DNA of 62,393 bases from Candidatus Roizmanbacteria bacterium RIFCSPHIGHO2_02_FULL_38_11 (GCA_001788015.1 MFZO01000044.1:1-62393); one strand, 5' to 3'; positions 27,009-60,337 are shown, numbered from the stretch's first letter. Program-made: numbers and translations. Notes: generated from the letters alone by a model not told the origin.

Positions 27009-27027
27009 AAATTAATAATTAATCAAT

Positions 27028-27085: not shown

Positions 27086-27095
27086 GTAATGAATT

Positions 27096-28118: not shown

Positions 28119-28199
28119 GAAAGTCAATTAGTTAGTTTGTTAGTTAATTGCTTAGTTTTAAATCTAATTTACTAATAACTAAGTAACCAAAAAACTACT
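28119..28199. repeat. AT-rich TTAGTT/AACTAA inverted-repeat spacer
   Basis: ttagttagtttgttagttaattgcttagtt ... actaataactaagtaac; cttagtt pairs with aactaag. Confidence 0.5.
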
Positions 28200-29351
28200 A
28201 TGGTTTCACTTATAGGCTATTACACCACACAGTTTGGAGAACTTTGGGAAAAATCATTATCAGATTTGATCGAAGAAGCTATAAACGGAGTTTTAAAAAA
28301 TACTAGATTGGATAAAAAGCAGATTGGTGCGATTTTTTTTTCTAATATGTTAGCGGGAGTTTTGGAAAATAATTTACATACGGTCTCAAAAATAGCCGAA
28401 ATATTAGGGGTAAATATTCCAATATTCAGAGTCGAAGCAGCCTGTGCTTCAGGCGGTGTAGCTTTTCATCTGGCAAAAAATTACTTGGATGCTAATCCAG
28501 GCAAAAATGTTTTAGTTATTGGGGCGGAAAAAATGACCGATTATTCTCCGGAAGAGACAACATCTGCCTTAGCTTCGGCTGCGTCAGGAGAAGAGCAAGA
28601 GGCTGGCCTGACTTTCCCGGGACTCTATGCTATGATGGCTCAATATTATTTAGGTAAATATAAATATACGGAGGAAAATTTGGCTTACGTCAGCCTTAAG
28701 AATCATTATCATGGGACATTGAATGACAAAGCTCATTTTAGAAAACAAATCACAATAGAACAGGTAATGAGCAGTCCTTATATTGCCTATCCACTAAAAG
28801 TTTTGGATTCGTGTACTGTTTCGGATGGTGCTTCGGCTCTTGTTTTATCCAGTGATCGGAATGTCGGAAGAAAAGAAAAAAGTGAAATCAAAGTTTTAGC
28901 CAGTGAAACAGCAAACGACAAAATTTCTTTGAAAGAGAGAAATAGTATAGATGAAATTTTAGCAACAGAAATTTCTGCAGATAAAGCCTTTACAAAGGCT
29001 AAAGTTAATCGAAAAGATATAAAAGTAGCAGAAGTGCACGACTGTTTTTCGATAGCTGAGCTTTTAGCTATGGAGGATCTTGGATTTTGGAAAAAAGGAA
29101 AAGGAGGAAAAAGAATAAAAGAGCTGTCGACAATGTATGGTTCAGATGGCGATTTAATTGTAAACACATCTGGAGGACTCAAAGCGTCGGGTCATCCGGT
29201 AGGCGCAACCGGCATAAAACAAATTGGTGAGATTTTTTTACAGCTTACTGGTCAGGCAACAAACAGACAGGTAAATGGTGCTAAATTTGGATTGGCTCAT
29301 AATGTTGGAGGCAGCGGCGGAACAGCAGTTGTGACAATACTTGGAGTTTAA
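28200..29351 (+). CDS. thiolase (acetyl-CoA acetyltransferase), archaeal/SCP-x type
   Basis: Active-site VEAACASGG; C-terminal GHPVGATG and HNVGGSGG. Confidence 0.87.
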   Translation: MVSLIGYYTTQFGELWEKSLSDLIEEAINGVLKNTRLDKKQIGAIFFSNMLAGVLENNLHTVSKIAEILGVNIPIFRVEAACASGGVAFHLAKNYLDANPGKNVLVIGAEKMTDYSPEETTSALASAASGEEQEAGLTFPGLYAMMAQYYLGKYKYTEENLAYVSLKNHYHGTLNDKAHFRKQITIEQVMSSPYIAYPLKVLDSCTVSDGASALVLSSDRNVGRKEKSEIKVLASETANDKISLKERNSIDEILATEISADKAFTKAKVNRKDIKVAEVHDCFSIAELLAMEDLGFWKKGKGGKRIKELSTMYGSDGDLIVNTSGGLKASGHPVGATGIKQIGEIFLQLTGQATNRQVNGAKFGLAHNVGGSGGTAVVTILGV

Positions 29352-38328: not shown

Positions 38329-40032
38329 TTACTCATCGGATTTCACATCGTATACAGTGTAGCCTTCGTTTTCGAATACTTTGGGAAGTTCATAGCGATG
38401 AGGTTTTTCTATTACCAAGTAAGATGCTTTATAGGTTTTGGCAATTCGTTTAAAATCTTCGGCAGATAGTGAGTAGTAAGCCTTAAGCGTTTGCCTAATG
38501 CTGGCGAACGGGTCTCCATTAAATTTTTGGATGACACCAGGAGCAAGTTTTTCAAAACGTTCTTTCCAGGGAGATAATCCTTGAGGAACCACAGCGATTT
38601 CGGCGATGTCGAAAAGAGAAGCGATGGAAGATCGATCTGATCCTACCCGCCACTCAATATAGTAAAACCAGCTTTTGTTAGGTGGCGTGATGAAAACATC
38701 TGTTTTATCGGTTTGACTACGTGCCCACAGTTGGACATCAACATAGGCAGACTTTTGTGGATAGATGTGGATACCCGGTTGCCATACGTTCAACGCGTAT
38801 CCCAGAATTGCTAAAGTTACAAAAGCGATTGGGACTATAAAAGAAGTCAGCACAACCCAATATTGTGAAGAGATAACTTTTCGGATCAATAAAACTACCA
38901 GGAGTACCGCAGGAATTACCGAAAAGATAATCGTAGTAATAAGTAAAACAAAATGGAGATTGTTTATTTTTTTAGTCCCGTAAAGTTTCACAACGTAATG
39001 AGTGAAATAAAGTAGAGCAAAAACGTTGATGAATAATCCTGCTCTGAAGATTTGAGACTGTATAATGATCGTAGAAGGATATATATAAGATGCAAAGGCT
39101 TGAACGACTATAATTATAAAAAGCGCAATCATGAATAAACTGATAGTGGTAGTATGTTTTAATCCAGCCAGGGCTTTTCTTGCAATGAGAAATAATATGA
39201 TGCTGCTTACTCCACCCAGGGTGAGAAGTGGTGCATAGAAGTTTGAGCCAAAAAGGAAAAAAAGATGGTATAGAACTCCACGGCTTACAACCCAAAACCA
39301 TTCAGGATTTGACTCAAGCTGTACAGGTGATCCGCCAAACTTCCAGATTAACACCGGGAGCGCCCCAATTATAAAAGCAATGAATCCAGCTATAATATTT
39401 TGATAGCGTATTTCTCGTATTTTTATCAATGAAGCAAAAAGAAACATGAACAGGACAAAATTTACAGAGACAATATGCAGGTTGTATAAAATCCCAAGCA
39501 AAAAGAAAGCAGATATATAACGTTTATCAAGATATAAATTGATTGCCATAAGAAGAAAAGGTAAAACAAAGATTCTATTGACAAGAGTCCACTCCACTAC
39601 AGGAAAACCAGAAAATCCAATATGGGGCAACATAAACACAAAAATCGTTAAAAAAGAGGTGAGTGGATTGTTAAACAGTTTTTTGCTGATATTCCAGAGT
39701 CCCCAAAACGTCAGATAGAGCACGCCGATGTATGTAACAAACATACTTATTTCAAGAATTCCGAGCTTATAAAAAGGGATGAACAAAAACCAAAAAAAGG
39801 AATAGTGGTGCAGACGCAGATCAATGAAATAATCGTTTGGATAAAGCGAAGGATCTGCGAACTTTTTTAAAAAGGGAATATGAGAAGCTTGATCAAGTGT
39901 GCCGAAGTAATAACCCATCGTAAGAAGACTGACAAGAGTCGCCACTGCAAATAAAATATGCTTTAACAAAGAATATCGCCAAACTGACAGACTGATTGAT
40001 TGTAATCTTAACGTAATATTTTTCACAAACAT
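38329..40032 (-). CDS. polytopic membrane protein with C-terminal soluble domain (GT-C-like topology)
   Basis: 567 aa with about 12 TM helices followed by about 130 aa hydrophilic; neighbours are GT2 and YYY-type proteins. Confidence 0.5.
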   Translation of the reverse strand: MFVKNITLRLQSISLSVWRYSLLKHILFAVATLVSLLTMGYYFGTLDQASHIPFLKKFADPSLYPNDYFIDLRLHHYSFFWFLFIPFYKLGILEISMFVTYIGVLYLTFWGLWNISKKLFNNPLTSFLTIFVFMLPHIGFSGFPVVEWTLVNRIFVLPFLLMAINLYLDKRYISAFFLLGILYNLHIVSVNFVLFMFLFASLIKIREIRYQNIIAGFIAFIIGALPVLIWKFGGSPVQLESNPEWFWVVSRGVLYHLFFLFGSNFYAPLLTLGGVSSIILFLIARKALAGLKHTTTISLFMIALFIIIVVQAFASYIYPSTIIIQSQIFRAGLFINVFALLYFTHYVVKLYGTKKINNLHFVLLITTIIFSVIPAVLLVVLLIRKVISSQYWVVLTSFIVPIAFVTLAILGYALNVWQPGIHIYPQKSAYVDVQLWARSQTDKTDVFITPPNKSWFYYIEWRVGSDRSSIASLFDIAEIAVVPQGLSPWKERFEKLAPGVIQKFNGDPFASIRQTLKAYYSLSAEDFKRIAKTYKASYLVIEKPHRYELPKVFENEGYTVYDVKSDE

Positions 40033-48217: not shown

Positions 48218-51200
48218 ATGGCAGATCCAGTTGAAACATTGGGTCAAAGAACAATCGCAGACACGATTATAGAAGCAAGAGACAGCATTCATAAAGAGTT
48301 GCCGTCTGCTCAAAGGAATCCACTGGAAATGAATATTTTGATAACTCGATTGAGACAGGACTTGAAAGACGCCGAGTCACCCGCTAAAGAATTTATTGCT
48401 AATGAAAAAAAAGTAAGTATTGGCCAAGCTCTGCCGGTTAAGCAGGCAGAAGGTGACATGGCGCTTCATAAAGTTATTAGAGCGGTTGAGGCGGCTAAAC
48501 AGGGGGTGCTGGTTTCCAAAACAACCCAAGGACAGGAACTTTTAGTAAAACTTTCCGAAAAAAGTTATACATCTTATTCTGTTGCCTCTGCGATAGAAGC
48601 AAATCTAGCCGATTACTTGATAGGTAACAAAAATATAACTATTAGCACTCAACCGGGAACTAAATCAGATTTTCAGCGCGCATTTGAAAATCTTAATTCT
48701 GATAATGTTACTGCAGCGACATTGATAGGTCAATCAATAATCGAGATGGCAAGGGAAGGAAAGATTGCGGGTCTCACAGAGGATGCGGCAAGAGAAAAAT
48801 TTGAAGTGAAGGAAGAAGAAAAAAGAAGAGAACCGAGAACCCAGGCTGATAGAGGATTAATAGAAGCTGGTTCAGGGCCTGAGAATGAAATGAGAGATTT
48901 CATAGAGCAGTATCCAAAAAAAGACCACGCATTAATTAATGCCTTATATAATCCCAGAGAATTTGAAAGTTTTGTTCAAAGAGAATATTACGAGAAGATC
49001 AAAAAAGAGTTTGAAAATAAGGGATTCACGGGAGACAAGCTTGAGGAGGAGATAGGTAAAGAACTTTCGGAAAGGCTAAGACATGATATAGCTTTATTGG
49101 TTGGTAGGCTTTATCAAAATGTTGATGAATCACATCCGTCTCAATTTTGGGAAGAAGCAGAAAAAAGAGGCGGATTTTGGAGAAATGCCGAGGTCTTTAG
49201 CGAAAATTTGTTGAGACAGATAAGGAATTTGAGAAATGCTGAATTTTCTGTAGATTTTCAATCTAAAACGATGTTCTTCATTAAAGATCAGGAAACTTAT
49301 TATGAAAGAGTTCCGGCGATACCAAGATTTGACAATGAAGCAGTAAGCGAAGAGACAAGAAAATTTGTCAAGCCATTGAGAAAAGATAGAAGAGTTGATA
49401 TTGGTACTTTTTTGCATTCCGTAGAAACGTTGGCTCATTCACACGAGATTCAAACCAGAAAGTTTCTGCACAACGGCCGGGCTTTAATCTATAACCCTAC
49501 TGATCCAGAGAAAGGTTATTACTCTAGTCTATCAGGATATGCAGATAAATTTCTCCCGGCCACTTCGGTAGACGTCCTTTTCACTCTTCCCGACGCCGAG
49601 GAAATTATGGCCGCATCACAGTTAGAAGATAAATTATTCGAAGCAGACTTTGCCAGAACCAACTGGGTTCATCAGCCGGGGTCTGCCGGTTTGGGGCCGC
49701 TGGGAATGACAGAACTAGATGAAGAATCTTTGGAGCGCTTGATGATGATTAATCCTAAGTTGAAGGACGACGAGTGGAGAGCTAAAAGGGCTCTCATTAT
49801 GGGAATAGGTGATAATTATACGATATCTTTAAGACATTTAGAGACAGGGGCTTATGCCGATCCTTCTATGAATCCGGAAGAAGGAATGGGGCCAACTTAC
49901 GGTTCATACGGTCCAAGAGACTCTATCCCCTACATGGCATTTAATATGCTGGCCCATGATAATATGAGATGGCAAGCGGAGAGGCTCTGGTTGGGCAATC
50001 TTTTATTTTTGCCTGTGAGAGGTAAAGATTTGGCAGGACACTTTGGATTTATGAAGTTCTGGGATCATCGAACGCTTTTGGACGAGATGAAGAAAAGCAT
50101 AGACTCTTACATAAAAGGCAGGCCGCCGGAGGATGTTGAAAAAGGAGTTGTAAGATGGGTTGATATCATTAATCCCGGAAGGGTTGGGAGTATATACACA
50201 CGCGGCGGATGGAGAGAATTTTACGCTTATGAGACTCATTTAGTGAGACCCTCTGAAGTAGAATTAAAACAAGGAATAAGGTTTAATATTACAGAGTCTT
50301 GGAAGGCATTGGAAAATGTAGGGGTAGAGTGCCTAAAAGATTTTGTCGGAAGAATAAGCAAAAAGCCTACGTCTTTAGACAAAACTTTTTTTACAGACGA
50401 TGGCAGGGACAATAGAAGAGGATTAATGGAACATATTTATAAGAAATATTTTTCTTCAAATGCTACCGCTGATGAGATTGAAGCTAAGTTTAAGCAATTG
50501 GAAAAGAATCCAGATCAACTTGAATCAGCTTACAAAACATTTTTTTATCAGGCTTTTGCTCGGGCCATGAAACAAAGAATTCCAACAAAGTTTCTTAGGG
50601 TTGAGCGAAATAGATTTGTTTCAGGTAGAAAAAGAGCCTACGAAGAAGTCAGGAAAAACAGCGGTTTGTCTGATGGGGATTTTGCCAGGGCAGTAAACGA
50701 TGTTATCACGGCCGAAGTTTATCTAAGGGGAGAAACGAGCAAAATTTTAAAAGATCAATATAAAGCTGGCAAGAAGTTAAACGAAATAAAAAATATCGAT
50801 TACACTTTGACAGAAGAAAAACTGCGCTTTTATTTAGGTGAGAAATTTGGTCTAAAAGGAACGGATGCAGAAAGAATAGAGAAAGCAGTTAAAACCTTTA
50901 AAACAATTAGTGCATTTGCCGATGAGAGCTATCTAGACGGATTTGCAAAAAAATACGCAGCAGATATGCACGAACACGGATTCCCTTTTGCTATAGCTGT
51001 TGAGGAATTAGATCGTAGCCTTCTTGCTCATAGAGCAGCCGGCGAAAGAACAATAGCTAGAGCTTTGGGTGACACGTCTATGGTAGAGATGCAGGTTGCC
51101 AAGACGATCTCAGGTTACTTTAAAACCATTCAAGAAGTGGCGGTTAATGGAAAGAAAGATATTAGCGAAATTGTTAACTCTATCAATACAGTCAAGACAA

Positions 51201-51709
51201 CAATAGAGATGCTTATTGGTAAAGATGCTGCCCATAGGATTGCACATCATATGGCCGCATTAACCATTTCTTATTTTAAAAAGGATACGGTTTCGGATAA
51301 TATTTTTACCAGGTGGTTTGTTATGAATAAGCCGCATTCTCTGGCTGCCGAGTTTGCCGGAACCTGGAGAGGAGTGTGGGAATGGCAGCCAGACGAGATA
51401 ATGACTTTTTGCAATGAGCTGGAAAAAAGGAGTATTTTACCTAAAGAGCCATTTGAAAAACAAAAAGCCCCAGAATGGCTGAAGAAACCTTCAGCAGAGT
51501 TTAACTTTTTGGGCCAAAAAATTATAATCGGCGGAAAAAGAAAGCCTGATTATGTATTTCACGGCAAGACGCTACGAGAGGAGTTTGGAGGCACCTGGAA
51601 ACATATGATAAACCATGTTCTCAATAAATATTTGCCGTTATTTGCTCTTTTTATACTTTTTCAATATTTACGAAAGGCATATAGTGAGTCGGCAGGACAG
51701 AAAAAATAA
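48218..51709 (+). CDS. giant orphan protein (1163 aa), soluble with a single C-terminal TM helix (tail-anchored)
   Basis: 3.5-kb uninterrupted ORF; no signal peptide; no Walker or other motif found by eye; LPLFALFILFQYL about 15 aa from the C-terminus. Confidence 0.6.
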   Translation: MADPVETLGQRTIADTIIEARDSIHKELPSAQRNPLEMNILITRLRQDLKDAESPAKEFIANEKKVSIGQALPVKQAEGDMALHKVIRAVEAAKQGVLVSKTTQGQELLVKLSEKSYTSYSVASAIEANLADYLIGNKNITISTQPGTKSDFQRAFENLNSDNVTAATLIGQSIIEMAREGKIAGLTEDAAREKFEVKEEEKRREPRTQADRGLIEAGSGPENEMRDFIEQYPKKDHALINALYNPREFESFVQREYYEKIKKEFENKGFTGDKLEEEIGKELSERLRHDIALLVGRLYQNVDESHPSQFWEEAEKRGGFWRNAEVFSENLLRQIRNLRNAEFSVDFQSKTMFFIKDQETYYERVPAIPRFDNEAVSEETRKFVKPLRKDRRVDIGTFLHSVETLAHSHEIQTRKFLHNGRALIYNPTDPEKGYYSSLSGYADKFLPATSVDVLFTLPDAEEIMAASQLEDKLFEADFARTNWVHQPGSAGLGPLGMTELDEESLERLMMINPKLKDDEWRAKRALIMGIGDNYTISLRHLETGAYADPSMNPEEGMGPTYGSYGPRDSIPYMAFNMLAHDNMRWQAERLWLGNLLFLPVRGKDLAGHFGFMKFWDHRTLLDEMKKSIDSYIKGRPPEDVEKGVVRWVDIINPGRVGSIYTRGGWREFYAYETHLVRPSEVELKQGIRFNITESWKALENVGVECLKDFVGRISKKPTSLDKTFFTDDGRDNRRGLMEHIYKKYFSSNATADEIEAKFKQLEKNPDQLESAYKTFFYQAFARAMKQRIPTKFLRVERNRFVSGRKRAYEEVRKNSGLSDGDFARAVNDVITAEVYLRGETSKILKDQYKAGKKLNEIKNIDYTLTEEKLRFYLGEKFGLKGTDAERIEKAVKTFKTISAFADESYLDGFAKKYAADMHEHGFPFAIAVEELDRSLLAHRAAGERTIARALGDTSMVEMQVAKTISGYFKTIQEVAVNGKKDISEIVNSINTVKTTIEMLIGKDAAHRIAHHMAALTISYFKKDTVSDNIFTRWFVMNKPHSLAAEFAGTWRGVWEWQPDEIMTFCNELEKRSILPKEPFEKQKAPEWLKKPSAEFNFLGQKIIIGGKRKPDYVFHGKTLREEFGGTWKHMINHVLNKYLPLFALFILFQYLRKAYSESAGQKK

Positions 51710-51751: not shown

Positions 51752-53083
51752 ATGAAGAAAATTTTTATTTCTTGCTTTTTTATATCTTTATTTTTTCTGT
51801 TTCAGCTTAAACCAGTTGTTTTAGCCGGTCCCCAATGTAATGCTTTAGGAGGAACCTGTAAGCTAAATTGTGATACAAACACAGAAGAACCTAAAGCTAC
51901 TCAAGACTCTCAGGATTGTCCGCTCAGCGGGCTAGGTGGAAATACCCGAGAAACATGTTGTGTTCCTCTTGCAGTACCTCGTGATGGAAGACAATGTAGA
52001 GCTTCAGGATGGACTTGTGAAAACTATTGTACGGGAGCCCCCAAAGGTGAACAAGATTGTCCAAGGGTAAGCGGTGGATTGGGGGGACCAATCCAACAAG
52101 TTTGTTGTGATCTTTCTGCCCCCTCTCCTACGCCTCCAACTGGAGCTCAATGTAAAGCTCAAGGATGGACTTGTGAAACCTATTGTTCAGGAGCGCCTAA
52201 AGGGAACCAAGATTGTCCAAAAGTCAACACAGGATATGGACTGGCTCAACAAACTTGTTGTGATCTTGCTGCACCATCTCCCACCCCTCCAACAGGTGCA
52301 CAATGTAGCGCATTAGGAGGGACTTGTGTATTAAATTGCCTAGGAGATCCTAAGGGAACCCAAGACTGTCCACCGACCAACACAGGATATGGGGGAGAGC
52401 AACCACAAACTTGTTGCGTCGCTACTACTCCTGCTAATCCTTTAGACTTTGAAATTCCAGGTGTGGGGTGCGGAGTGCCAAACGATACGACAGGAGCAAA
52501 TAAATGTTGTCAGACTACTAAACCAAACTGCAATTTTGGGGTAATGGAAGTACTTCAGGTTATACCTGGAATTGGTGATTGGATAAGAGGAGCTAAAGCT
52601 CAATGCGAAAGTCTAGGTGAATTTCAAGAAAAATACGGCAAGCTAAAATGTTTATACGGTCAGGAAAAGTATGATGCTGCTGGTAATTGTGGTTGCGTTA
52701 CAGAAGCCACAAGCAGTGCAATTCCTGAAATTAGAGAGATGTGTAAAAAATATCTTGGGACGTCTAACCCCAAAGAGTTTGAGGCATGTGATAAATGTGC
52801 CGCTACTGGTTTTTATACAGGCATAGGCTGTATACCGCTTACGCTAGGGGGTTTTACCAGCTTTGTATTCAGTTTTGGCATTGGTTTAGGCGGAATCATT
52901 GCTCTACTTTGTATTATTTACTCGGCGTTCGTCATGCAGACCTCAGGTGGTAATCCTGAAAGGATCAAAAAAGCCCAAGAGAACTTGACTTCGTGCATCA
53001 TGGGATTAATGCTGATAATCTTTGCCATTTTTATATTGAGGGTAATAGGTGTAAATATTTTAAAGATACATGGGTTTGGATAA
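51752..53083 (+). CDS. secreted Cys-rich repeat protein fused to a pilin-like two-helix C-terminus
   Basis: Signal peptide (..VVLA/GP); 4 six-Cys repeats; a further Cys-rich middle region; C-terminus TM - TSGGNPERIKKAQENL - TM, like the small pilin-like ORFs. Confidence 0.65.
   Translation: MKKIFISCFFISLFFLFQLKPVVLAGPQCNALGGTCKLNCDTNTEEPKATQDSQDCPLSGLGGNTRETCCVPLAVPRDGRQCRASGWTCENYCTGAPKGEQDCPRVSGGLGGPIQQVCCDLSAPSPTPPTGAQCKAQGWTCETYCSGAPKGNQDCPKVNTGYGLAQQTCCDLAAPSPTPPTGAQCSALGGTCVLNCLGDPKGTQDCPPTNTGYGGEQPQTCCVATTPANPLDFEIPGVGCGVPNDTTGANKCCQTTKPNCNFGVMEVLQVIPGIGDWIRGAKAQCESLGEFQEKYGKLKCLYGQEKYDAAGNCGCVTEATSSAIPEIREMCKKYLGTSNPKEFEACDKCAATGFYTGIGCIPLTLGGFTSFVFSFGIGLGGIIALLCIIYSAFVMQTSGGNPERIKKAQENLTSCIMGLMLIIFAIFILRVIGVNILKIHGFG
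51836..52417 (+). repeat. four tandem coding repeats of about 150 nt (six-Cys module)
   Basis: Repeats 2 and 3 are clearly similar at the DNA level (caatgta(g/a)agct..ggatggacttgtgaaa..tattgt..gattgtcc..tgttgtgatct..); spacing C-x6-C-x3-C-x9/15-C-x12-14-CC. Confidence 0.85.
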
Positions 53084-53085: not shown

Positions 53086-54762
53086 TTATTGTGTTGATTT
53101 TTTCCCTCCTGGCAATGTTAATCCTATTTTTTCTCCAGCCGCTTGCAATGCCCCTAAACCTAATCTCATACTTCCCAGCTGACCAAGTAAACCAAGTCCG
53201 CCGCCTGCGGCAGTTCCAGCCCCGGCAAAGAATGTTCCAAGTCCTGCCGTATCCAATAGTCCAGGTTTAGGTACAAATAGTTGTTTTACGGCTTTTACTA
53301 AATCCGGCGTTAAAAATAAAATAGCCATTGCTACGATTAGACTAAAGTCGCTAGGATCGATACTTCCCATAAAGGGAAACTGGATAAGAGATTCAGCAGT
53401 TGTAGGCCCAGAGTATATAGCGTTTGTGATAAGATTTACCAACATAAATATTGCAACCATGGTGGGGAAGACTATAAGTTCGGAAATAAGATTTTTTAAC
53501 CAGCTCGAAAAAGCCGACTGGCCCGGGACTGCTTCTAAAAGCAAATAAAGTGGGGAAATGATTATGGTCAAAAGTATTTTTATATAGGCAGATATTATAA
53601 GAAATATCAGCCTAAAAAAGATCAGTAGAATCGTAAAAAAAATTAGCAGACCAAGAAGAAAGGGAACAACAACTGTACCTCCTATGACTATACCAATAAT
53701 TAAACCGACAATATTAAGTGGCGCTTTTATTAGTTCGCCTAAACCTTCCCACTGGAATCCAAATCCGAGAAGGGTTGCTATACCTTCAAGATGGAAGGCG
53801 TCAATGATATTTTTAAAGAAAGTTTTTTGCGTTAGCCAGGGATAAACAAAAACTACTCCGATAATACTTCCAATAATACGTACGACTGCGCCAATTTGAG
53901 GCACTATATTAAGCAAAGCGTTGGGAAGGTCAAATAGTACTCTGAAAATATTGTTACCCGTACCCGCGGTGAAAGTGAAGAATAAATCATGAGGAGCTGC
54001 CCGGAGATAAACGCGCTGTTTATCGGCTATCTGGGCTGGATTTAAGCCTCCTGCTGGACCAATAATCGAAACTATAAGAATTATTGCTATGTACATAAGA
54101 TCGATCAGGAATCCGGCAATCGCAAAGGAAAAAGTAATTAAAATAAGAGAAATCACGATTTTAGGCAGAGAATTTTCCACAGAAATAACAGTTTGAGGAT
54201 TGAGCTTCATACTGAACATGATCATGAAACCGATTGTGATCAATACCAAAACAATCACTAGATAGGCGACGTTTCTGAAAGCATTCCATATTTTGGCAAA
54301 GGGCTTAATAGCGCCAAAACCTATGCCCTCGGCGGCGTAAGTTTTTGGAATAAAACCGGCATCTTGCAGTCCGTTGTAGGCCCACCAGACGCCAGAGGCA
54401 GGAGGATTAGTATAGGGAAGAATAATCAGTTTGCTTAAAAAACCGAAAGTACTTTTATTAAAATTCTTATCCCCGTCTGACGGATTGTTCGTGCAGGCTT
54501 CACCGACCAAGCCGCACATTGTTAATCGATACAAAGCAATGGTTAGTTTTCCCTCTTTAGTTTTTTTGAGTTTTGGATCGTTTAATACTTTATAGATCTC
54601 CACCCGATTTTTTTTGACGGGATCTTGCGTGATTTTCGGTTTATCTTTGTTGATGAAATGAATAAAGAGAGAGATGATAATAAAGTAAACTACAATTACT
54701 AGAAAAATCTTTTTTCCTATATTGATTAGTTTCTTTAACCCGGCAAGGTAAAATGGAAGCAT
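53086..54762 (-). CDS. polytopic membrane protein (558 aa), VirB6/TrbL-like topology, Gly-rich C-tail
   Basis: N-terminal anchor, about 100-aa loop, at least 8 TM helices, C-terminal GLGTFFAGAGTAAGGGLGLLGQLG. The VirB6 analogy rests on topology and context only. Confidence 0.45.
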   Translation of the reverse strand: MLPFYLAGLKKLINIGKKIFLVIVVYFIIISLFIHFINKDKPKITQDPVKKNRVEIYKVLNDPKLKKTKEGKLTIALYRLTMCGLVGEACTNNPSDGDKNFNKSTFGFLSKLIILPYTNPPASGVWWAYNGLQDAGFIPKTYAAEGIGFGAIKPFAKIWNAFRNVAYLVIVLVLITIGFMIMFSMKLNPQTVISVENSLPKIVISLILITFSFAIAGFLIDLMYIAIILIVSIIGPAGGLNPAQIADKQRVYLRAAPHDLFFTFTAGTGNNIFRVLFDLPNALLNIVPQIGAVVRIIGSIIGVVFVYPWLTQKTFFKNIIDAFHLEGIATLLGFGFQWEGLGELIKAPLNIVGLIIGIVIGGTVVVPFLLGLLIFFTILLIFFRLIFLIISAYIKILLTIIISPLYLLLEAVPGQSAFSSWLKNLISELIVFPTMVAIFMLVNLITNAIYSGPTTAESLIQFPFMGSIDPSDFSLIVAMAILFLTPDLVKAVKQLFVPKPGLLDTAGLGTFFAGAGTAAGGGLGLLGQLGSMRLGLGALQAAGEKIGLTLPGGKKSTQ

Positions 54763-54817: not shown

Positions 54818-55243
54818 TTATTTTATTACCCAAACAACTTCATACTGATTGGTATTGATTCCGATATTTTTCAGCTGTGTCAACACCTCGTTTTTAATTG
54901 CATCTTGTTGGCCAGACAGATAAATATCTGCGATAAATTTTCTTTCATAGATGTCATAATAGACAAAATATTTTTGAGTTCTAAGAGGAAGTTTATCGTA
55001 CCAAGGATATGTATCATATATCTCTTTGGTCCACCTGCCAAATTCTTTGTCAGACTCGAGCTGTTCTTTTTCGTCCTGGGTGAGTGTCGGTCCTAAATCT
55101 TGGATCGTAGGGATGATTATAGTTGGTATAGGTGTTATAGGTGGTTCATTAGGTGGTTTTGAGCGGGACAAAAAGTAATAAACGCTTGCTACAACAACCA
55201 AAAACAGGCTAAGAATCAGGATATAGATATATACTTTTTTCAT
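54818..55243 (-). CDS. membrane-anchored hypothetical protein (141 aa)
   Basis: The [18 protein letters not shown] start at 55243 overlaps the upstream stop as ATGA; Pro-rich linker followed by a globular domain. Confidence 0.5.
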   Translation of the reverse strand: MKKVYIYILILSLFLVVVASVYYFLSRSKPPNEPPITPIPTIIIPTIQDLGPTLTQDEKEQLESDKEFGRWTKEIYDTYPWYDKLPLRTQKYFVYYDIYERKFIADIYLSGQQDAIKNEVLTQLKNIGINTNQYEVVWVIK

Positions 55244-56109
55244 AATGATGGACAACCAAATCCCCTTAAAGAATCGTTAGTAAACGGCGTTCCCTGTATA
55301 TTCCCACTGTAAACGGGATATCTGGATATTTTTCTGGTGCTATTGGCATCGTATGTTTCTATATAGCCATTATAGCTTGAATCAAGGTTAACAGTCTTGA
55401 GGACTGCCGTGTGATTTTTATTCGTTACATGAACACCGGGAGTATATTGGAAGAAAGTCGCACAGCCTGGTTTAACCGTATTTAAAGCCTGTTGACGTTC
55501 TCCAGCTGAGGCAAGTTGATAAGTCGGAGGATTGGCGAAGTAATCTATGAATTTTACGCTGTAGGGAATATAGTTGTAGCCAGACGTCGTCATAAAAAAT
55601 TGTTGCATATTTTTGGTGGCCAGATGTGCACGGGTCAATCCGGTAAGCCCGGCAAGGTTATAAGCATTAATTACAAGGTAAGTACACCAATAAAGGTTGG
55701 ACGTACTTGTCGCAGGGCTGTAAAAAGCTGTGTATGATCCGTTGGAAGGCGGGTCAGTCAGTCGATTAAAATACCAGGAAGGCGGCCAGATAATATCTTC
55801 TCCCTCAAGTTTTTCACTGATGGCGATTGTATTCGTGAGGATATCTCCCAATTTGCCCGCAGGAATCGTAGGAAAAGGTTCGGATGTTGTTTGAGGTGGT
55901 GGTCCAGAGGGATTTGGACTGATAGGAAGGGGTGGTTGCGAAGCGGGATTAAAACTAAAGAATATTTTAAGAAGCTCTTGCAGAAAAAAAAGCGGATTTG
56001 AATAAGTTGTTTGAGGCGGGTTTTGGGCTGTAACGGGCGGCGGAAGAATAATAAATGAAAGAATTAAAATTAAAACTGTGGTGTTGACAATCAATAAAAA
56101 TTTCTTCAT
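55240..56109 (-). CDS. secreted protein with possible papain-fold (CHAP/NlpC-P60-like) hydrolase domain
   Basis: Signal peptide, Pro-rich linker, candidate nucleophile in [16 protein letters not shown] and His in NKNHTAVL. The catalytic assignment is unverified. Confidence 0.45.
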
Positions 56110-56122: not shown

Positions 56123-59100
56123 ATGGCTTTATTAGATTTTATTAAAAAACCAAAACAAAAAGCAAGCGCAGTTCCTCAAGGCGCAGTTCAAAACAATACA
56201 ACTACTCAAACCCACGTAGTTGAGACGACCCAGACGACTCAATCCACTGGGCCACAAACGTATTCTGGCATCGGTGCTCCTCCTCAGCATCATGTTGAAA
56301 GTTCGCAAACGACGGTAGCGAAAACTACAGCTGCGACTCCAGGTGCCCCAACTGCTTCGGCAAATTTGTCCAGCGAGGAAAAAAAACGAGAGGAGATTGA
56401 CCTTATGACACACCTGACCCAGAGATCCAACCGAGTATTTCTCTCCGCTCAAAACAAAGCGAGGGAATTGAAATTAGACTTTGTCGACAGTGAGCATTTA
56501 CTACATGGGCTTTTGTCAGATAGCGAAATCTACAATCTTTTCATCGAGTTTAAGATTCACCCCCAACTTATAGAGGAAGAATTAAAAAAGATTTACAAAA
56601 ACGGAGCAAGCCAGAAGATGCCTCAGCTATCACCCCGAGTCAAACGTATTCTAGGTCTGTCCCTCACAGTTGCCAGGAAGCTTCGTTTTGAGTTTATATC
56701 GCCGGAACATATTCTCTTGGCTCTATATGAAGAAGGAGAAGGTGCAGGAGCAAAGATATTGACTAAAATGGGACTTAAAAAACAAGACTTAAACAAGAAA
56801 ATCATCGGCAAAAAAGAAGGGCTTGAAAAACAGGATAAAGAAGCGGATACAAAAAAGAACACAGTTGATCGCTACACAATCGACTTAACGGCAAAAGCCG
56901 CGCAAGGGCTTTTGGATCCCGTTGTTGAGAGATCAGATGTTATTGAACGAGTCATACATATTCTTTCCAGAAGAACAAAAAATAACCCAGCTTTAGTCGG
57001 AGAAGCCGGCGTTGGTAAGACGGCTGTCGTTGAAGGTCTGGCTCAGAAAATTGTTACAAAGGGCGTACCGGAATCACTCCTCGATAAAAGAGTCTTACAG
57101 CTCGACTTGATGAGTATAATAGCCGGAGCTTCTCATAGAGGTGAGTTTGAAGAAAGAATGAAAGAATTGATTGAACAGGTACAGGCGAGTAAAGGACAGA
57201 TAATTCTCTTTATTGACGAGATTCATAATATTGTGGGCGCAGGTGCGTCGGGTGAAAATGCTCTTGACGCTTCCAATTTCCTTAAACCGGCTTTAGCCCG
57301 AGGCGAACTGCAGCTTATTGGTGCGACCACGCTTACAGAATATCGAAAATACATAGAAAGAGATCCGGCTTTAGAGCGAAGATTTCAACCTGTTTTGGTT
57401 CAAGAGCCGACGATCGAACAAGCTATAAAAATGCTTAAAGCGATAAAGGATAAATATGAAGCGTTTCACCGCGTAAAGATTCCTGATGATGTGGTCGAAG
57501 CAGCGGTAAAATTCTCAAAGAGGTACGTAGGAGATCGGTTTTTACCCGATAAGGCAGTTGATCTTATTGACGAAGCAGCCTCGGCGGTTCGCTTACCGCT
57601 CATATCTCTTCCCGAAGTAATCAAATCTATTGAGACGCGGATAGCTGAATTAAATCAAGAGCTTCAGGAAGGGGAGAAACTGGGTGATAGAGTTAAGGTG
57701 CGGATTCTTCGATCTAAAATCGATGAGATAGAATCCACTCTAAAAGAGAAAAGGGGAGAATACGATATGAGAAAAGCTCAAACGACTTCAGCCGTTAGCG
57801 TTGATATTATAAAAGATATCGTTTCACGCTGGACGGGTATCCCAATCTCAAAAATCACCGAGTCAGAGCTTGAGCGTTTGGCACAGCTTGAGAAAATCAT
57901 GCATCAACGACTCATTGACCAGAATATAGCTGTGACTTCGGTAGCCGCAGCTGTAAGGCGAGGAAGAGCAGGATTAAAATCTACGCAAAGACCGATTGGC
58001 AGTTTTGTCTTTTTAGGTCCAACCGGTGTTGGAAAAACAGAGCTTGCAAAAACTTTAGCCGAAGTTTTATTTGGCCAGGAAGAAGCAATGATACGATTTG
58101 ACATGACAGAATATATGGAGAGGCATGAAGTGGCGAAGCTTCTTGGCGCGCCTCCCGGATATGTTGGATATGAAGAGGGAGGAAAACTGACAGAGGTAGT
58201 AAGAAGAAAGCCTTATTCGGTGGTTCTTTTTGACGAAGTAGAAAAAGCCCATCCGGATATTTTCAATATTCTTCTACAGATTCTTGACGATGGAAGGCTG
58301 ACTGATAATAAAGGTCATGTTATTTCGTTTAAAAACACAGTAGTCATCTGCACGTCAAATATTGGTACGCAGATGATTCAAGATGAGCTTTTAAAGAGTG
58401 GGAAAATAGAGATAGAAGAGCCGCCATTTTTGTCCACCTACACATTCTCACCAAGAGGTAGAGAAATATTGACGATTGGCACGAAGTATTTTGAAAGGGA
58501 AAAAGCAGTTGACAGTTGGAAGGAGGGAGTGCTTTTAGATTATTTTGCAGGCCAAGAAATAAAGCAGGATCAGTCAAAGGTTGACCAGCCTCTAACCGTA
58601 GAATCTTCGACCAAAGGTCGATCCACCGCTGGTGGAGACTTTCCCGTTCAGGGTTTTGCTACCCACACAATTTCTTTTAGAGGTGAAGAGCTTATAACAA
58701 AAGGTAATACGGTGTTTGTAAGAACTTCAACAACTGCAAAAATTTGGAAAACCACCACATTAATAGATTATTTTAAGGACGGAATTGTTGTTAATGCTCT
58801 TCCTGATGCACCAGAAGAGCAGCTTCCCACCGCAAGATTAAAGACTCACGCCTTTACGCCGGACGAGAGAGAAGTAGTGACATATAAAGACCGTTATTGG
58901 GTAAGAAAGGAAGGAATGAACGATTGGCAGACTGGTCATTTGAAGGATTATTTTACCGGAGCAGAAATCCAAGAGGCAGATCTTCAGAAAGCAACTAAAC
59001 AGGATCTAACTCCCCCTAAGGGGAGTCAAAAAGCCGCTAAGCAGGAGCAAAATGGTGTAAAAAGCGATGTCAAAAAAACCAATAAATTCTTTCCTACAGC

Positions 59101-60013
59101 CTATTGGGATATCCATACTTTCTCACCCTCAGGTAAAGAAATAATAATCTTAGGAGATACTGCTTGGTTTAGGAATGAAAGAAAAAATATATGGCAAACC
59201 CAATCGCTTAATGAATATTTTGGCAAAGATTTTCCGCTTGAAAAAGAACTTGAGGAGAAAAGAAAGGTTGATGAAGAAATTGATAAAAAGAAATACGATC
59301 TTATAAAAAGTAAAGTCACGGCAGAACTCCGTAAATTCTTTAGACCTGAACTTCTCAATAGATTCGATGAAGTTATCATCTTTGAACCTCTCAAGTTCAC
59401 TCACATGATAAAGATAGTTCAATTGCAGCTTAAGGGCTTGGCAAAGTTGTTAGAAGATCAAGATATAGGATTTATCTATACAGATTCGGCCGTAAAAGAG
59501 ATAGTGAGGGAAGGATTTGATCCTATATATGGGGCGAGACCGTTAAGGAGAGCGATTCAAAAGGTTATTGAAAATCCCATCTCCACGCTTATCATTGAAA
59601 AAAAAGTTAAAGCAGGAAATCAGATACAGGTCGATTTTGACGGGGAGAGCTTTATCTTTAATATAGAAAAAGTGGAGTTAGTGCCAGAAGAGATGCTAAA
59701 AAAGCGGACAATAAAGAACTTCTTATGCGAAGCTTGTGGCAATCATTTTATGACTTCAGTCGTGAAAAATTCTACGGTCATCTGCAGCCGATGTGCCTCA
59801 ACCAAAGTCCAAGAAGTGATAGAGTCACCTAAGGTTATACCTCTGGACGAAAAATCTTCTACAACCGATAAGGATGGAAAGCCCTCCAACGCTTCCGCTT
59901 CGGAAGGTGAAGAAGATAAGAATAAGTTGTCTAACGATGGAAAGTTAAGCGGGGACAAAAACCTTGACGGAAGACAAAAATCGCAGACAAATTTCCCGGC
60001 AACCCATGCATAA
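56123..60013 (+). CDS. ClpC/ClpB-type double AAA+ protein with N-terminal T/Q-rich extension, ~300-aa insertion in NBD2 and C-terminal zinc ribbon
   Basis: Two Clp_N repeats; NBD1 [15 protein letters not shown] / ILFIDEIH; short M-domain; NBD2 [12 protein letters not shown] / [13 protein letters not shown] / ICTSN / [11 protein letters not shown] / GARPLRR. Alternative in-frame start at 56405 (GGAG upstream). Confidence 0.85.
58421..59233 (+). repeat. four degenerate coding repeats of about 45-50 aa inside NBD2 of the AAA+ gene
   Basis: [40 protein letters not shown] / [42 protein letters not shown] / [40 protein letters not shown] / [40 protein letters not shown]. Confidence 0.8.
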
Positions 60014-60016: not shown

Positions 60017-60337
60017 ATGGATAATAGATATTTAGCACAGCAAATCTGTATTGGTGGACAATGCGTGACTGGGGTTCTTGACCCTAAGATTCAAACTTTG
60101 GGAGACTTAGTCAATAGAGTCATACAGTTTCTTATTCCTCTTGCAGCTGTAATCCTTTTGGTGGTTTTCATCTGGGGCGGGTATGATTATATGATGTCTC
60201 AAGGAAGCCCAGAAAAAGTAAAATCTGCTCAGGCAAAGATTACGACTGGAATTATTGGTTTGATTCTTCTTCTTATCTCCTTTGTGTTGGTGAAGCTGAT
60301 CAGTTCAATTTTTGGTTTGGGAGGAGGGATAATTTGA
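60017..60337 (+). CDS. small two-helix pilin-like protein (TrbC/VirB2-like T4SS-pilin pattern)
   Basis: TM1, then SQGSPEKVKSAQAKITTGI, then TM2; ATG lies 3 nt after the AAA+ gene stop. Confidence 0.5.
   Translation: MDNRYLAQQICIGGQCVTGVLDPKIQTLGDLVNRVIQFLIPLAAVILLVVFIWGGYDYMMSQGSPEKVKSAQAKITTGIIGLILLLISFVLVKLISSIFGLGGGII

What the first reader, a model, noticed from the sequence alone, without database searches (positions are those of the whole stretch)
58400..59290. ~300-aa four-repeat insertion inside NBD2 of a ClpC/ClpB-type AAA+ protein
In Clp/Hsp100 proteins, sensor-1 (TSN) is separated from the Arg-finger region (RPEFLNRxDE) by roughly 30 residues. Here the two are about 325 residues apart (58358 to about 59340). 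The extra sequence consists of four degenerate ~45-aa repeats. Their pattern is H-(T/A)-(F/I)-(S/T)-(P/F)-x-(G/E)-x-E-(I/V/L)-(I/L/V)-T-x-G-x3-(F/W)-x-R-x5-7-W-x4-L-x-(D/E)-Y-F-x-G, and they are joined by polar linkers. All other ATPase motifs of both rings are intact, so the protein is probably active. Four small beta-rich modules would project from the NBD2 ring, potentially as a substrate, adaptor or membrane-docking platform. I know of no Hsp100 with such an insertion.
Basis: partly seen in the sequence, partly recalled or inferred. Interest (0 to 1): 0.8.

Follow-up and report, generated by a model that had tools for sequence, protein, structure and literature searches.

The report
ClpC unfoldase with propeller replacing ClpP-docking tip
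A protein-unfolding motor (ClpC type) from the uncultivated Roizmanbacteria carries a folded four-bladed propeller domain at the tip of the loop that normally plugs the motor into its protease partner ClpP, so it probably docks to something else.

Summary
One intact ORF (56123-60013, +) encodes a 1296-aa two-ring Hsp100. Sensor-1 (TSN, 58352-58360) and the Arg-finger motif (RPELLNR, from 59342) lie 330 residues apart. Between them are four significant ~47-aa repeats.

- The repeats are the blades of one compact hemopexin-like four-bladed beta-propeller (AF2 pLDDT 81, pTM 0.76; Foldseek top hits are all hemopexin folds). They are not four separate modules.
- The host is ClpC-type, with a short M-domain that aligns without a break to B. 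subtilis and S. aureus ClpC.
- The insertion replaces S. aureus ClpC residues 670-677, the tip of the ClpP-docking P-loop that holds the AGF motif. No PhiGF remains there.
- It is not a one-off. All 119 best full-length homologues and at least 104 species genomes carry it, mostly Candidatus Roizmanbacteria. Sixteen of the homologues carry a second propeller nested in blade 1.

Chimera, intein and mobile-element readings are rejected.

Most likely the protein is an active unfoldase that no longer docks to ClpP in the canonical way. It would instead present six propellers on its exit face as docking modules for another partner. The partner is unknown, and whether these genomes encode ClpP could not be tested. 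I found no description in the searched literature. It is a new variant of a known kind.

The parts
56123..60013 (+). Whole gene: 1296-aa ClpC-type Hsp100 with propeller insertion. The ATG at 56123 is the likely start. The ORF is open from a GTG at 56078.
   Evidence: ORF. (Pfam: Clp_N x2, AAA, AAA_lid_9, AAA_2 in two stretches, ClpB_D2-small). (P0022 is 100% identical over 1296 aa, and relatives start MAGFFDFIKK).
56123..56389 (+). Conserved N-terminal peptide (MALLDFIKK) followed by a ~80-aa low-complexity Q/T/P-rich region.
   Evidence: MAGFFDFIKK-type start in most relatives. No Pfam match.
56390..56990 (+). Clp N-domain (two Clp_N repeats) and the linker to NBD1.
   Evidence: PF02861, 2 stretches. 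(aligns to the S. aureus ClpC chain from residue 4).
56999..57388 (+). NBD1 core: Walker A GEAGVGKT (56999-57022), Walker B ILFIDEIH (57203-57226), sensor-1 IGATT (57317-57331), Arg fingers ALERRFQ (57368-57388).
57122..57151 (+). NBD1 pore loop [10 protein letters not shown], where ClpC/ClpB have KYRG. The aromatic Tyr is replaced by His.
   Evidence: aligned to AGTKYRGEFE of ClpC. (AGASHRG in 117/119 relatives).
57602..57793 (+). Short ClpC-type M-domain coiled coil.
   Evidence: query 72-513 aligns as one uninterrupted stretch to B. subtilis ClpC 61-505 (nearly equal lengths) and 17-511 to S. aureus ClpC 4-503, across the M-domain. Alignments to ClpB stop at about query 470.
57989..58360 (+). 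NBD2 large subdomain up to sensor-1: Walker A GPTGVGKT (58016-58039), pore loop GAPPGYVG (58145-58168), Walker [11 protein letters not shown] (58220-58249), sensor-1 CTSN (58349-58360).
58361..58414 (+). N-terminal arm of the P-loop ([18 protein letters not shown]). It corresponds to S. aureus ClpC ~659-669.
   Evidence: query 1-177 aligns to SaClpC 493-669. (helix 175-184 of the model).
58415..59248 (+). The 278-aa insertion: a hemopexin-like four-bladed beta-propeller (EEPPFLS...DFPLEKE).
   Evidence: AF2: pLDDT 81/80, pTM 0.76/0.74, four blades each of 4 strands plus a short helix. (Foldseek top 18 hits are all hemopexin-fold proteins, E 1e-7 to 1e-5, target TM 0.6-0.72). (conservation across 103 relatives).
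58421..58561 (+). Blade 1. In relatives its strand 3/4 loop holds a variable spacer or a whole second propeller.
58562..58639 (+). Variable, low-confidence polar linker between blades 1 and 2.
   Evidence: pLDDT <50 at residues 80-87 of the insert. (unconserved columns).
58640..58786 (+). Blade 2.
58793..58831 (+). Loop [13 protein letters not shown] between blades 2 and 3, among the most conserved segments of the insert and a candidate partner-binding surface.
   Evidence: N, A, P, D, P, Q, P, T invariant in 25 diverse sequences. It also served as a diagnostic pattern.
58823..58966 (+). Blade 3.
58967..59089 (+). Low-complexity linker between blades 3 and 4. About 36 aa of it are absent from nearly all relatives.
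   Evidence: (pLDDT <50 at residues 210-231).
59090..59236 (+). Blade 4, ending in the conserved EYFGxDFPLEKE junction.
59237..59371 (+). Long return helix (34 residues in the model). It continues into the helix that is called allo-R in ClpC, then the Arg-finger motif [10 protein letters not shown] (59342-59371).
   Evidence: helix 465-498. (query 475-603 aligns to SaClpC 678-806). PMC12521514 for allo-R.
59393..59632 (+). D2-small domain with sensor-2 GARPLRR (59531-59551).
   Evidence: PF10431, E 1e-23..
59726..59794 (+). C-terminal CxxC...CxxC zinc ribbon, followed by a polar tail to 60010.
   Evidence: Zn_ribbon_8, 19 bits, below the 34.4 cut-off. (CxxC..CxxC in 118/119 relatives).
60017..60337 (+). 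Downstream 106-aa two-TM protein (T4SS_pilin family) starting 3 nt after the Clp stop. It is a conserved neighbour, but a functional link is not shown.
   Evidence: PF18895, 32.7 bits, above the 26.6 cut-off. (a homologue downstream of the Clp gene on the same strand, at most ~1.6 kb away, in about 72 of the 83 loci then held, L001-L083). (the same in L084-L086).

Best explanation
The gene encodes a ClpC-type, two-ring AAA+ protein unfoldase. It has an N-domain, NBD1, a short M-domain, NBD2 and the D2-small domain.

In this protein the tip of the ClpP-docking 'P-loop' of NBD2 has been replaced by a 278-residue hemopexin-like four-bladed beta-propeller. The propeller is carried between the two retained arms of the loop: a short helix going out and a long 34-residue helix coming back into the Arg-finger strand.

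Shown here: the fold prediction, the exact insertion site, the loss of the PhiGF tripeptide at that site, intact ATPase motifs and NBD2 pore loop, and strong purifying selection on the propeller across a whole lineage.

Inferred: in the hexamer, six propellers hang from the distal (substrate-exit, normally ClpP-facing) face of the AAA-2 ring. The motor still threads polypeptides using ATP. Because the tripeptide that anchors Clp ATPases in ClpP's hydrophobic pockets is gone and a bulky domain sits in its place, the enzyme does not dock to ClpP in the canonical way. The propellers act as protein-binding modules that couple the exit face to another, still unidentified partner or scaffold. The machine would then work as a ClpP-independent unfoldase or remodeller.

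My confidence in the anatomy (what it is) is about 0.9. My confidence in the mechanism (a partner-docking module replacing ClpP docking) is about 0.4. The single figure given (0.5) is for the statement as a whole.
For: Anatomy:
- Pfam shows AAA_2 split into two stretches and nothing for the insert.
- AF2 of the insert alone and within NBD2 gives the same four-blade fold (pLDDT 81 and 80, pTM 0.76 and 0.74).
- Foldseek ranks hemopexin-fold proteins first (3oyo, 1qjs, MMP PEX domains, vitronectin; probability 1.0).
- The rest of the second model matches ClpC/ClpB AAA-2 (target TM 0.79-0.87 to ClpB NBD2 crystals).
- There is a sequence link to hemopexin repeats. The propeller profile finds secreted proteins (at least one from another candidate-phyla-radiation lineage, Candidatus Dojkabacteria) with 'IDAAYFD..GGYTVIKGDRYWYR' repeats (E 1e-16 to 1e-5 in 1.84 billion proteins). 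One of these, P0172, passes Pfam Hemopexin (24.0 bits against a 21.3 cut-off).

ClpC type:
- The alignment to ClpC runs through the M-domain as one uninterrupted stretch.

Insertion site:
- Query 1-177 aligns to SaClpC 493-669 and query 475-603 to SaClpC 678-806.
- The SaClpC P-loop is residues 660-680, with AGF at 671-673. The G672D/F673D mutant loses ClpP binding (PMC12521514).
- The ClpE alignment stops at residue 599, just before VGF 602-604 (PMC13125188).

Selection and spread:
- All 119 full-length best hits carry the insert.
- 49 columns of the propeller are invariant in 25 sequences that are under 72% identical to each other.
- At least 104 species-representative genomes carry it.

The propeller matters on its own:
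- Reduced derivatives keep it after losing NBD1, Walker B and the pore loop. These are P0146 and the 352-aa P0155/P0189, which sits at the same syntenic position.
Against: - No experiment and no hexamer model was available. The tools return no coordinates, so the position on the exit face rests on homology to the P-loops of solved ClpC-ClpP and ClpE-ClpP complexes.
- Whether Roizmanbacteria encode ClpP could not be tested. Its absence from the window and from +-8 kb around 83 loci says little.
- The P-loop arms and the allo-R helix, which also touch ClpP in ClpC, are retained. A modified ClpP interaction is therefore not excluded.
- A conserved xGF precedes blade 2 (FPVQGFATH). It is variable at the first position and lies in an ordered region at the start of a blade, but it was not tested as a ClpP ligand.
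- No partner was identified. The conserved neighbours belong to a larger syntenic block (pyrH, recF) and so are weak evidence.
Confidence: 0.5

Rival explanations
1. It is still the ATPase of a ClpCP protease. The propeller is an elaborated P-loop that contacts ClpP through a new surface, or it gates or regulates the ClpC-ClpP interface.
For: ClpC-type architecture is intact throughout. The P-loop arms and allo-R helix, which contact ClpP beta-hairpins in S. aureus ClpC, are retained. ClpP presence in these genomes is untested.
Against: The PhiGF tip, whose mutation abolishes ClpP binding in ClpC and ClpE, is replaced. A ~25-kDa folded domain at the tip would have to be accommodated where a flexible tripeptide normally enters a pocket. 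Derivatives with dead or missing motors keep the propeller, which a pure ClpP-docking role does not predict. No clpP lies near any of 83 loci, though this is weak evidence.
Confidence: 0.2
2. The propeller is a substrate- or adaptor-recruitment platform. It captures clients or adaptors and hands them to the pore.
For: Hemopexin-like propellers are general protein- and ligand-binding modules (hit descriptions). Surface loops are strongly conserved. The same repeat serves as an accessory module in secreted enzymes, at least one from a candidate-phyla-radiation lineage.
Against: The site is the P-loop on the exit face of AAA-2, opposite the N-domain and M-domain side where Hsp100 substrates and adaptors engage (established knowledge of ClpC/MecA and ClpB/DnaK; PMC12521514). 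The connecting arms are short. The protein keeps a complete N-domain for recruitment.
Confidence: 0.2
3. The propellers mediate self-association, for example tail-to-tail stacking of rings or a storage state, or they stabilise the hexamer. They would replace adaptor-dependent assembly control.
For: ClpC is known to cycle between resting oligomers and active hexamers (PDB entries 9qqr, 9qcl and 9qrw appear among the hits). Six propellers around a ring could touch each other (geometric inference). Some lineages double the propeller.
Against: There is no direct evidence. The M-domain that controls the resting state in ClpC is retained. Monomeric derivatives with dead ATPase keep the propeller.
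Confidence: 0.1
4. Artefact or selfish element: an assembly chimera, an intein, or a mobile insertion.
For: Many database relatives appear as C-terminal fragments starting inside the insert.
Against: The fragments are explained by contig ends, an N-run and a 1-nt deletion elsewhere in the gene. 119 full-length proteins, several on contigs of 0.5-1.2 Mb, carry the insert in frame. There is no DNA-level repeat and no G+C step. Pfam, NCBIfam, PHROGs and PADLOC give no hit for the insert. The junctions lack intein residues, and the fold is a propeller.
Confidence: 0.01

Closest known systems
ClpC (B. subtilis ClpC/MecB, S. aureus ClpC, M. tuberculosis ClpC1): the Hsp100 partner of ClpP
   Same: Two Clp_N repeats, NBD1, a short M-domain that aligns to ClpC as one uninterrupted stretch, NBD2, the D2-small domain, all ATPase motifs, the NBD2 pore loop, the P-loop arms and the allo-R helix.
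   Different: The PhiGF tip of the P-loop (AGF 671-673 in S. aureus) is replaced by a 278-aa propeller. The NBD1 pore loop is SHRG rather than KYRG. There is an extra N-terminal FFDFIKK peptide with a disordered region, and a C-terminal zinc ribbon with a tail.
ClpB/Hsp104 disaggregases, and the engineered BAP chimera (ClpB carrying the ClpA P-loop)
   Same: There is no PhiGF at the equivalent position, so ClpP-independent action is plausible. The BAP chimera's alignment to the query breaks at the same point as the insertion begins (5ofo ends at residue 728). TIGR03346 ClpB is the top NCBIfam hit.
   Different: The score is below the ClpB cut-off (924 against 1232 bits). The M-domain is short and ClpC-like, not the long ClpB coiled coil that binds DnaK. 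ClpB has only ~3 residues where this protein has a propeller.
Hemopexin-like (PEX) four-bladed beta-propellers: hemopexin, MMP C-terminal domains, vitronectin, legume PA2/CP4 albumins
   Same: The predicted fold and blade topology match. The blade signature is of the same type (acidic or His residue at the blade start, G-D-x-x-W-x-R, an aromatic at the blade end). There is a transitive sequence link through bacterial repeats to PF00045.
   Different: There is no direct Pfam hit. It is cytoplasmic and inserted inside an AAA+ domain rather than being a terminal extracellular module. Long disordered spacers lie between blades.
Hsp100s that couple to non-ClpP partners at specialised machines (ClpV/TssH of type VI secretion; Plasmodium HSP101 on the PTEX translocon)
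   Same: They are Hsp100 motors without ClpP docking whose output is tied to another assembly. This is an analogy only.
   Different: There is no sequence or architectural similarity beyond the Hsp100 core. ClpV scores below its cut-off (691 against 885 bits). Neither is known to me to carry a domain in the P-loop position (my own knowledge, not tested).

Membership tests
Class I Hsp100/Clp (two AAA+ rings) | Two AAA+ modules, each with Walker A, Walker B, sensor-1 and Arg finger, plus sensor-2 in the D2-small domain | tested here: met
   [28 protein letters not shown]; [36 protein letters not shown]. Pfam AAA, AAA_lid_9, AAA_2 and ClpB_D2-small.
Class I Hsp100/Clp (two AAA+ rings) | An aromatic pore-loop residue in each ring (KYRG in NBD1, GYVG in NBD2) | tested here: inconclusive
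   GYVG is present in NBD2. NBD1 has SHRG (Tyr to His) in 117/119 relatives. The functional consequence is unknown.
ClpC subfamily | Double Clp_N N-domain and a short (two-helix) M-domain | tested here: met
   PF02861 in 2 stretches. One uninterrupted alignment to ClpC 61-505 and 4-503, across the M-domain.
ClpC subfamily | P-loop with a PhiGF tripeptide that docks into ClpP H-sites | tested here: not met
   SaClpC residues 670-677 (AGF 671-673) have no counterpart. About 297 residues, including the propeller, occupy the position (PMC12521514). No hydrophobic-G-F/L is conserved in the retained arms.
ClpC subfamily | Forms a protease with ClpP | not testable with these tools
   No clpP in the window or in +-8 kb around 83 loci. 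Whole genomes could not be read.
ClpB disaggregase | Long M-domain coiled coil, and a score above the TIGR03346/NF008118 cut-offs | tested here: not met
   924 bits against a 1232 cut-off, and 767 against 1417. ClpB alignments end at about query 470, before the M-domain.
ClpA, ClpV1/TssH, ClpG, ClpK (NCBIfam models) | Score above the curated cut-off | tested here: not met
   All below cut-off: ClpA 706/993, ClpV1 691/885, ClpG 745/1900, ClpK 745/1900.
Hemopexin-like four-bladed beta-propeller | Four blades of four antiparallel strands closed into one propeller | tested here: met
   This is a prediction only. AF2 gives pLDDT 81 and pTM 0.76 with four units of 4 strands plus a helix. Foldseek's best 18 hits are all hemopexin-fold proteins, target TM up to 0.72.
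Hemopexin-like four-bladed beta-propeller | Match to the Pfam Hemopexin repeat (PF00045) | tested here: inconclusive
   No direct hit at E<=1. The link is indirect: propeller profile to P0172 (E 3e-8), and P0172 to PF00045 at 24.0 bits against a 21.3 cut-off.
Intein / mobile insertion | Hint or homing-endonuclease domains, Cys/Ser/Thr and His-Asn at the junctions, sporadic distribution | tested here: not met
   No such Pfam or PHROGs hits. The junctions read ...KIEI|EEPP and ...LEKE|LEEK. The insert is present in every one of 119 close relatives.

The most novel reading that the evidence does not exclude
The six exit-face propellers dock the ClpC motor onto a non-ClpP receiver at the cell envelope. 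That receiver could be the small T4SS-pilin-like or single-TM proteins encoded immediately downstream across the family. The ATP-driven threading would then feed unfolded polypeptides into a membrane or secretion apparatus. This would be a bacterial counterpart of the Plasmodium HSP101-PTEX arrangement, in episymbiotic ultra-small bacteria that depend on surface appendages.
Probability: 0.08. Interest if true: 0.9.

Novelty: new variant of a known kind. Interest (0 to 1): 0.7.

Why it matters
The PhiGF P-loop is the defining, near-universal coupling element between Clp unfoldases and ClpP. Here an entire bacterial lineage has replaced its tip with a folded protein-binding propeller while keeping the motor intact. 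The family includes variants with a second nested propeller and motor-dead derivatives that still keep the propeller.

This is a natural experiment on how an AAA+ motor's output face can be rewired. It points to an unknown partner in organisms (Microgenomates, candidate phyla radiation) whose proteostasis is essentially unstudied. It also gives a concrete, clonable target.

Three questions become directly testable: whether it binds ClpP, what the propeller binds, and where the translocated chain goes. The answers could also guide engineering of Hsp100 motors with new docking specificities, in the way the BAP chimera did.

Tried and rejected
1. **Split gene.** The first homologue search returned only fragments of 496 aa or less that start inside the insert. 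That suggested a split gene or a recoding site. Reading three contigs showed a contig end (L001), a run of N (L002) and a 1-nt deletion in Walker B (L003). The full-length search then found 119 intact proteins. The split-gene idea was dropped.

2. **Direct profile and sequence searches of the insert.** Pfam, NCBIfam, PDB sequences, PADLOC and PHROGs gave nothing.

3. **Another copy of the repeat in the window.** None was found.

4. **ClpP.** This is not informative about whole genomes. I found no way to read whole Roizmanbacteria genomes with these tools, so one homologue search was left unused.

5. **Literature.** Seven searches covered ClpC with Microgenomates, Hsp100 with propeller and insertion, candidate phyla radiation or Patescibacteria or Roizmanbacteria with Clp, and hemopexin with AAA+. 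None found a description.

6. **The xGF before blade 2 as a cryptic ClpP tripeptide.** I judged this unlikely. Its first position varies (Q, L, Y, F, H, N...), and it sits at the ordered start of a blade, equivalent to 'YWDIH' and 'LKTH' in the other blades.

7. **A T4SS cluster nearby.** Pfam on 20 other large ORFs of the window showed housekeeping genes and no VirB4 or VirD4.

8. **Synteny with the T4SS_pilin gene.** It extends to pyrH and recF as well, so it is not specific evidence for a functional link.


Full report

The window holds one uninterrupted ORF on the + strand. It runs from 56078 (GTG), or more likely the ATG at 56123, to 60013. Pfam finds two Clp_N repeats, AAA, AAA_lid_9, AAA_2 in two separated stretches, and ClpB_D2-small. 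It finds nothing in the stretch between the two AAA_2 pieces.

Sensor-1 (TSN) is at 58352-58360 and RPELLNR begins at 59342, which is 330 residues later. Solved ClpB and ClpC chains have only 3-13 unaligned residues at this point.

The four repeats are at 58421-58561, 58640-58786, 58823-58966 and 59090-59236. They are 27-40% identical pairwise. Local-alignment scores are 5-19 standard deviations above 2000 shuffles. There is virtually no repeat at the DNA level and no compositional step.

One correction applies. The ATPase motifs are intact, but the NBD1 pore loop reads AGASHRG where ClpC has AGTKYRG.

**2. Artefact, intein or mobile element?**

A first search with the insert returned only fragments that start inside it. 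Inspection showed trivial causes: a contig end (L001), a run of N (L002), and a one-base deletion in Walker B far from the insert (L003).

A search with the whole protein returned an identical 1296-aa protein (P0022) and more than 100 full-length relatives. In all 119 with recognisable motifs, TSN and RPE are 264-358 residues apart (103 proteins) or 540-582 residues apart (16 proteins). Several lie on contigs of 0.5-1.2 Mb.

The insert is as conserved as the AAA+ core. It has 49 invariant columns among 25 sequences that are under 72% identical to each other. Pfam, NCBIfam, PHROGs, PADLOC and PDB sequence searches give no intein, transposase or other match. Chimera, intein and mobile-element readings are rejected.

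**3. What the insert is**

AlphaFold2 with a 21-sequence alignment gives pLDDT 81 and pTM 0.76. Each repeat forms four strands and a short helix, and the polar linkers are disordered. A pTM that high despite ~80 disordered residues means the four repeats pack into one body.

Foldseek against the PDB ranks hemopexin-fold four-bladed propellers first. These include cow-pea CP4, hemopexin, MMP-1/2/9/12/13/14 PEX domains and vitronectin (E 1e-7 to 1e-5, target TM 0.6-0.72).

The same fold appears when NBD2, insert and D2-small are modelled together with 86 sequences (pLDDT 80, pTM 0.74). The non-insert part of that model superposes on ClpB and ClpC AAA-2. In that model the propeller is carried between a short helix ([10 protein letters not shown]) and a 34-residue helix that runs into the Arg-finger strand.

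A profile of the propeller, searched against 1.84 billion representatives, finds only 48 proteins. They fall into three groups:
- Divergent Clp proteins.
- Reduced Clp derivatives.
- Secreted non-Clp proteins with 3-16 copies of a repeat 'IDAAYFD..GGYTVIKGDRYWYR....WYTNTL.SAY'. These carry GH39-like, DUF2961, Peptidase_C39_2 or dockerin domains. One close relative is annotated Candidatus Dojkabacteria.

One of the secreted proteins, P0172, passes the Pfam Hemopexin model. Fold and transitive sequence evidence therefore agree: the insert is a divergent hemopexin-like propeller. A plausible inference, not tested, is that it was recruited from modules of this kind in secreted proteins of candidate-phyla-radiation bacteria.

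**4. What the host protein is, and where exactly the insert sits**

The N-terminal 513 residues after the disordered leader align to B. subtilis ClpC 61-505 and S. aureus ClpC 4-503 as one uninterrupted stretch across the M-domain. Alignments to ClpB stop before the M-domain. No NCBIfam Clp model reaches its cut-off. The architecture is ClpC-type.

For NBD2, query 1-177 aligns to S. aureus ClpC 493-669 and query 475-603 to 678-806. According to the MecA/ClpC/ClpP structure paper, the ClpC P-loop is residues 660-680, with the AGF motif at 671-673. That motif docks into ClpP H-sites, and G672D/F673D abolishes the interaction (PMC12521514).

The E. faecalis ClpE alignment likewise stops at residue 599, just before VGF 602-604 (PMC13125188). 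The alignment to the ClpB-ClpA P-loop chimera BAP (5ofo) breaks at the same point.

The ~297 extra residues therefore replace precisely the tip of the ClpP-docking loop. The loop arms and the following 'allo-R' helix remain. No hydrophobic-Gly-Phe/Leu is conserved in the arms. The xGF before blade 2 is variable at its first position and belongs to the ordered start of the blade.

**5. Distribution and variation**

A scan of one genome per species found at least 104 genomes encoding the propeller in a Clp context. Most are Candidatus Roizmanbacteria. Others are Woesebacteria and unclassified Microgenomates or Patescibacteria. Many third-party MAG records are titled 'uncultured Gammaproteobacteria', which is evidently a mislabel. 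The closest is Roizmanbacteria RIFCSPLOWO2_01_FULL_37_16, at 70% identity over the propeller.

Family-wide features:

| Feature | Relatives with it |
|---|---|
| NBD1 pore loop SHRG | 117/119 |
| NBD2 pore loop GYVG | 117/119 |
| C-terminal CxxC...CxxC zinc ribbon | 118/119 |
| N-terminal MAGFFDFIKK-type peptide | most |

The 16 long variants contain a second complete four-blade propeller. It is inserted in the strand 3/4 loop of blade 1 of the first propeller (also L002). This is exactly where the short variants have a variable spacer.

Two reduced forms exist:
- P0146 (834 aa) has an N-domain, one AAA module without the catalytic Glu or pore loop, the propeller, D2-small and the zinc ribbon.
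- P0155/P0189 (352 aa, Roizmanbacteria) has a dead AAA-2 large subdomain plus the propeller. It sits at the same syntenic position as the full gene.

**6. Genomic context**

The gene lies in a conserved block. A secreted 289-aa protein is upstream on the opposite strand. Downstream come small TM proteins that include a T4SS_pilin-family protein (60017-60337, starting 3 nt after the stop), then pyrH and recF.

A homologue of the pilin-like gene lies downstream of the Clp gene on the same strand, at most ~1.6 kb away, in about 72 of the 83 loci L001-L083. The whole block is syntenic, however, so the adjacency is weak evidence of a functional link. No VirB4 or VirD4 genes, and no clpP, are in the window or within 8 kb of the gene in 83 loci.

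**7. How it most likely works**

Shown:
- A ClpC-type motor with complete ATPase sites and an intact main (NBD2) pore loop.
- A conserved folded propeller at the P-loop tip.
- No PhiGF at that site.

Inferred from solved ClpC-ClpP and ClpE-ClpP complexes:
- The six propellers hang below the AAA-2 ring, on the face where ClpP would bind and where the threaded chain emerges.

Inferred:
- Canonical ClpP docking is lost.
- The propeller, a typical protein-binding fold under strong purifying selection, couples the exit face to another partner or scaffold.
- Motor-dead derivatives retain the propeller, which supports a binding role that does not depend on threading.

I put the anatomy at ~0.9 and this mechanism at ~0.4. 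The rivals are a modified ClpP interface (0.2), a substrate or adaptor platform (0.2; disfavoured by the exit-face position and the retained N-domain), and self-association control (0.1).

**8. Comparison with known systems, and novelty**

It works like, and is built like, ClpC. It fails the ClpC-defining PhiGF test, so I do not file it as a ClpP-coupled ClpC. It is not ClpB either, because it has a short M-domain and scores below the cut-off.

The insert is hemopexin-like by predicted fold and by transitive homology, but not by a direct Pfam match. Seven full-text searches found no description of a propeller or hemopexin insertion in any Hsp100, nor any work on Clp proteins of Microgenomates. 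Databases call these proteins 'AAA family ATPase' or 'ClpC'.

I rate it a new variant of a known kind, with interest 0.7. A specialist would be surprised to see the ClpP-coupling tripeptide replaced by a folded domain across a whole lineage, and the questions it raises are directly testable.

The main gap is that ClpP presence in these genomes, the hexamer geometry and the partner could not be determined with the tools at hand.

Noticed in passing
window 57122-57151: The NBD1 pore loop reads [10 protein letters not shown] instead of the near-universal AG(T/A)KYRGEFE. The substrate-gripping Tyr is His in 117 of 119 family members. The effect on threading is unknown.
   Followed up: partly
window 56123-56389: There is a conserved N-terminal peptide (MALLDFIKK here, MAGFFDFIKK in most relatives). 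It is followed by ~80 residues of Q/T/P-rich low-complexity sequence before the Clp N-domain. No family match was found.
   Followed up: partly
window 59726-60010: A C-terminal CxxC...CxxC zinc ribbon follows the D2-small domain, then a polar or acidic tail. The four Cys are present in 118/119 relatives. Like the propeller, it would sit on the exit side of the ring.
   Followed up: partly
P0025, P0026, P0053, P0085 and 12 others; L002 5400-7000: Long family members have a second complete four-blade propeller nested in the strand 3/4 loop of blade 1 of the first propeller. This gives 8 blades in total, with blade 1 split in two.
   Followed up: yes
L084 8001-9059 (P0189/P0155); P0146: Reduced derivatives exist. 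One is a 352-aa Roizmanbacteria protein with a dead AAA-2 remnant plus the propeller, at the same syntenic position as the full gene. The other is an 834-aa form lacking NBD1, the Walker B Glu and the pore loop. The propeller is kept while the motor decays.
   Followed up: partly
window 60017-60337; also 51752-53083: A 106-aa two-TM T4SS_pilin-family gene starts 3 nt after the Clp stop. A homologue lies downstream of the Clp gene on the same strand, at most ~1.6 kb away, in about 72 of the 83 loci L001-L083. Many loci also have a small single-TM ORF with an N-terminal 'NYTPLD' motif in between. A 443-aa protein upstream also ends in a T4SS_pilin domain.
   Followed up: partly
P0158, P0160, P0161, P0167, P0174, P0180-P0183, P0157, P0176: The same hemopexin-like repeat ('IDAAYFD..GGYTVIKGDRYWYR') occurs in 3-16 copies in secreted proteins with GH39-like, DUF2961, Peptidase_C39_2 or dockerin domains. 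One is annotated Candidatus Dojkabacteria.
   Followed up: partly
window 55240-56109 (-): A secreted 289-aa protein is transcribed divergently from the Clp gene and is conserved at the same place in L002. It has no Pfam or PHROGs match. By eye, a 'YWCT...' Cys and a later 'NHTAV' His resemble a CHAP/NlpC-P60-type hydrolase, but this was not tested.
   Followed up: no
L003/L015 ~2368: A relative has a 1-nt deletion inside the NBD2 Walker B codons (VVLF|DEVEKA), which splits the gene into two ORFs. It could be a sequencing error or a pseudogene. This explains one of the 'fragment' hits.
   Followed up: partly
L004-L083 record titles: Many third-party MAG records that carry this Roizmanbacteria-type gene are titled 'uncultured Gammaproteobacteria'. 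One is titled Weeksellaceae and one Limisphaerales. These are probably taxonomic mislabels or bin contamination.
   Followed up: no
window 25830-29351 and 35376-37241: The window holds mevalonate-pathway genes (HMG-CoA reductase, an HMG-CoA synthase-like protein, a thiolase) and an ATP-dependent (archaeal/eukaryotic-type) DNA ligase. There are also several large ORFs with no Pfam match (18796-20559, 38329-40032, 48218-51709, 53086-54762).
   Followed up: no
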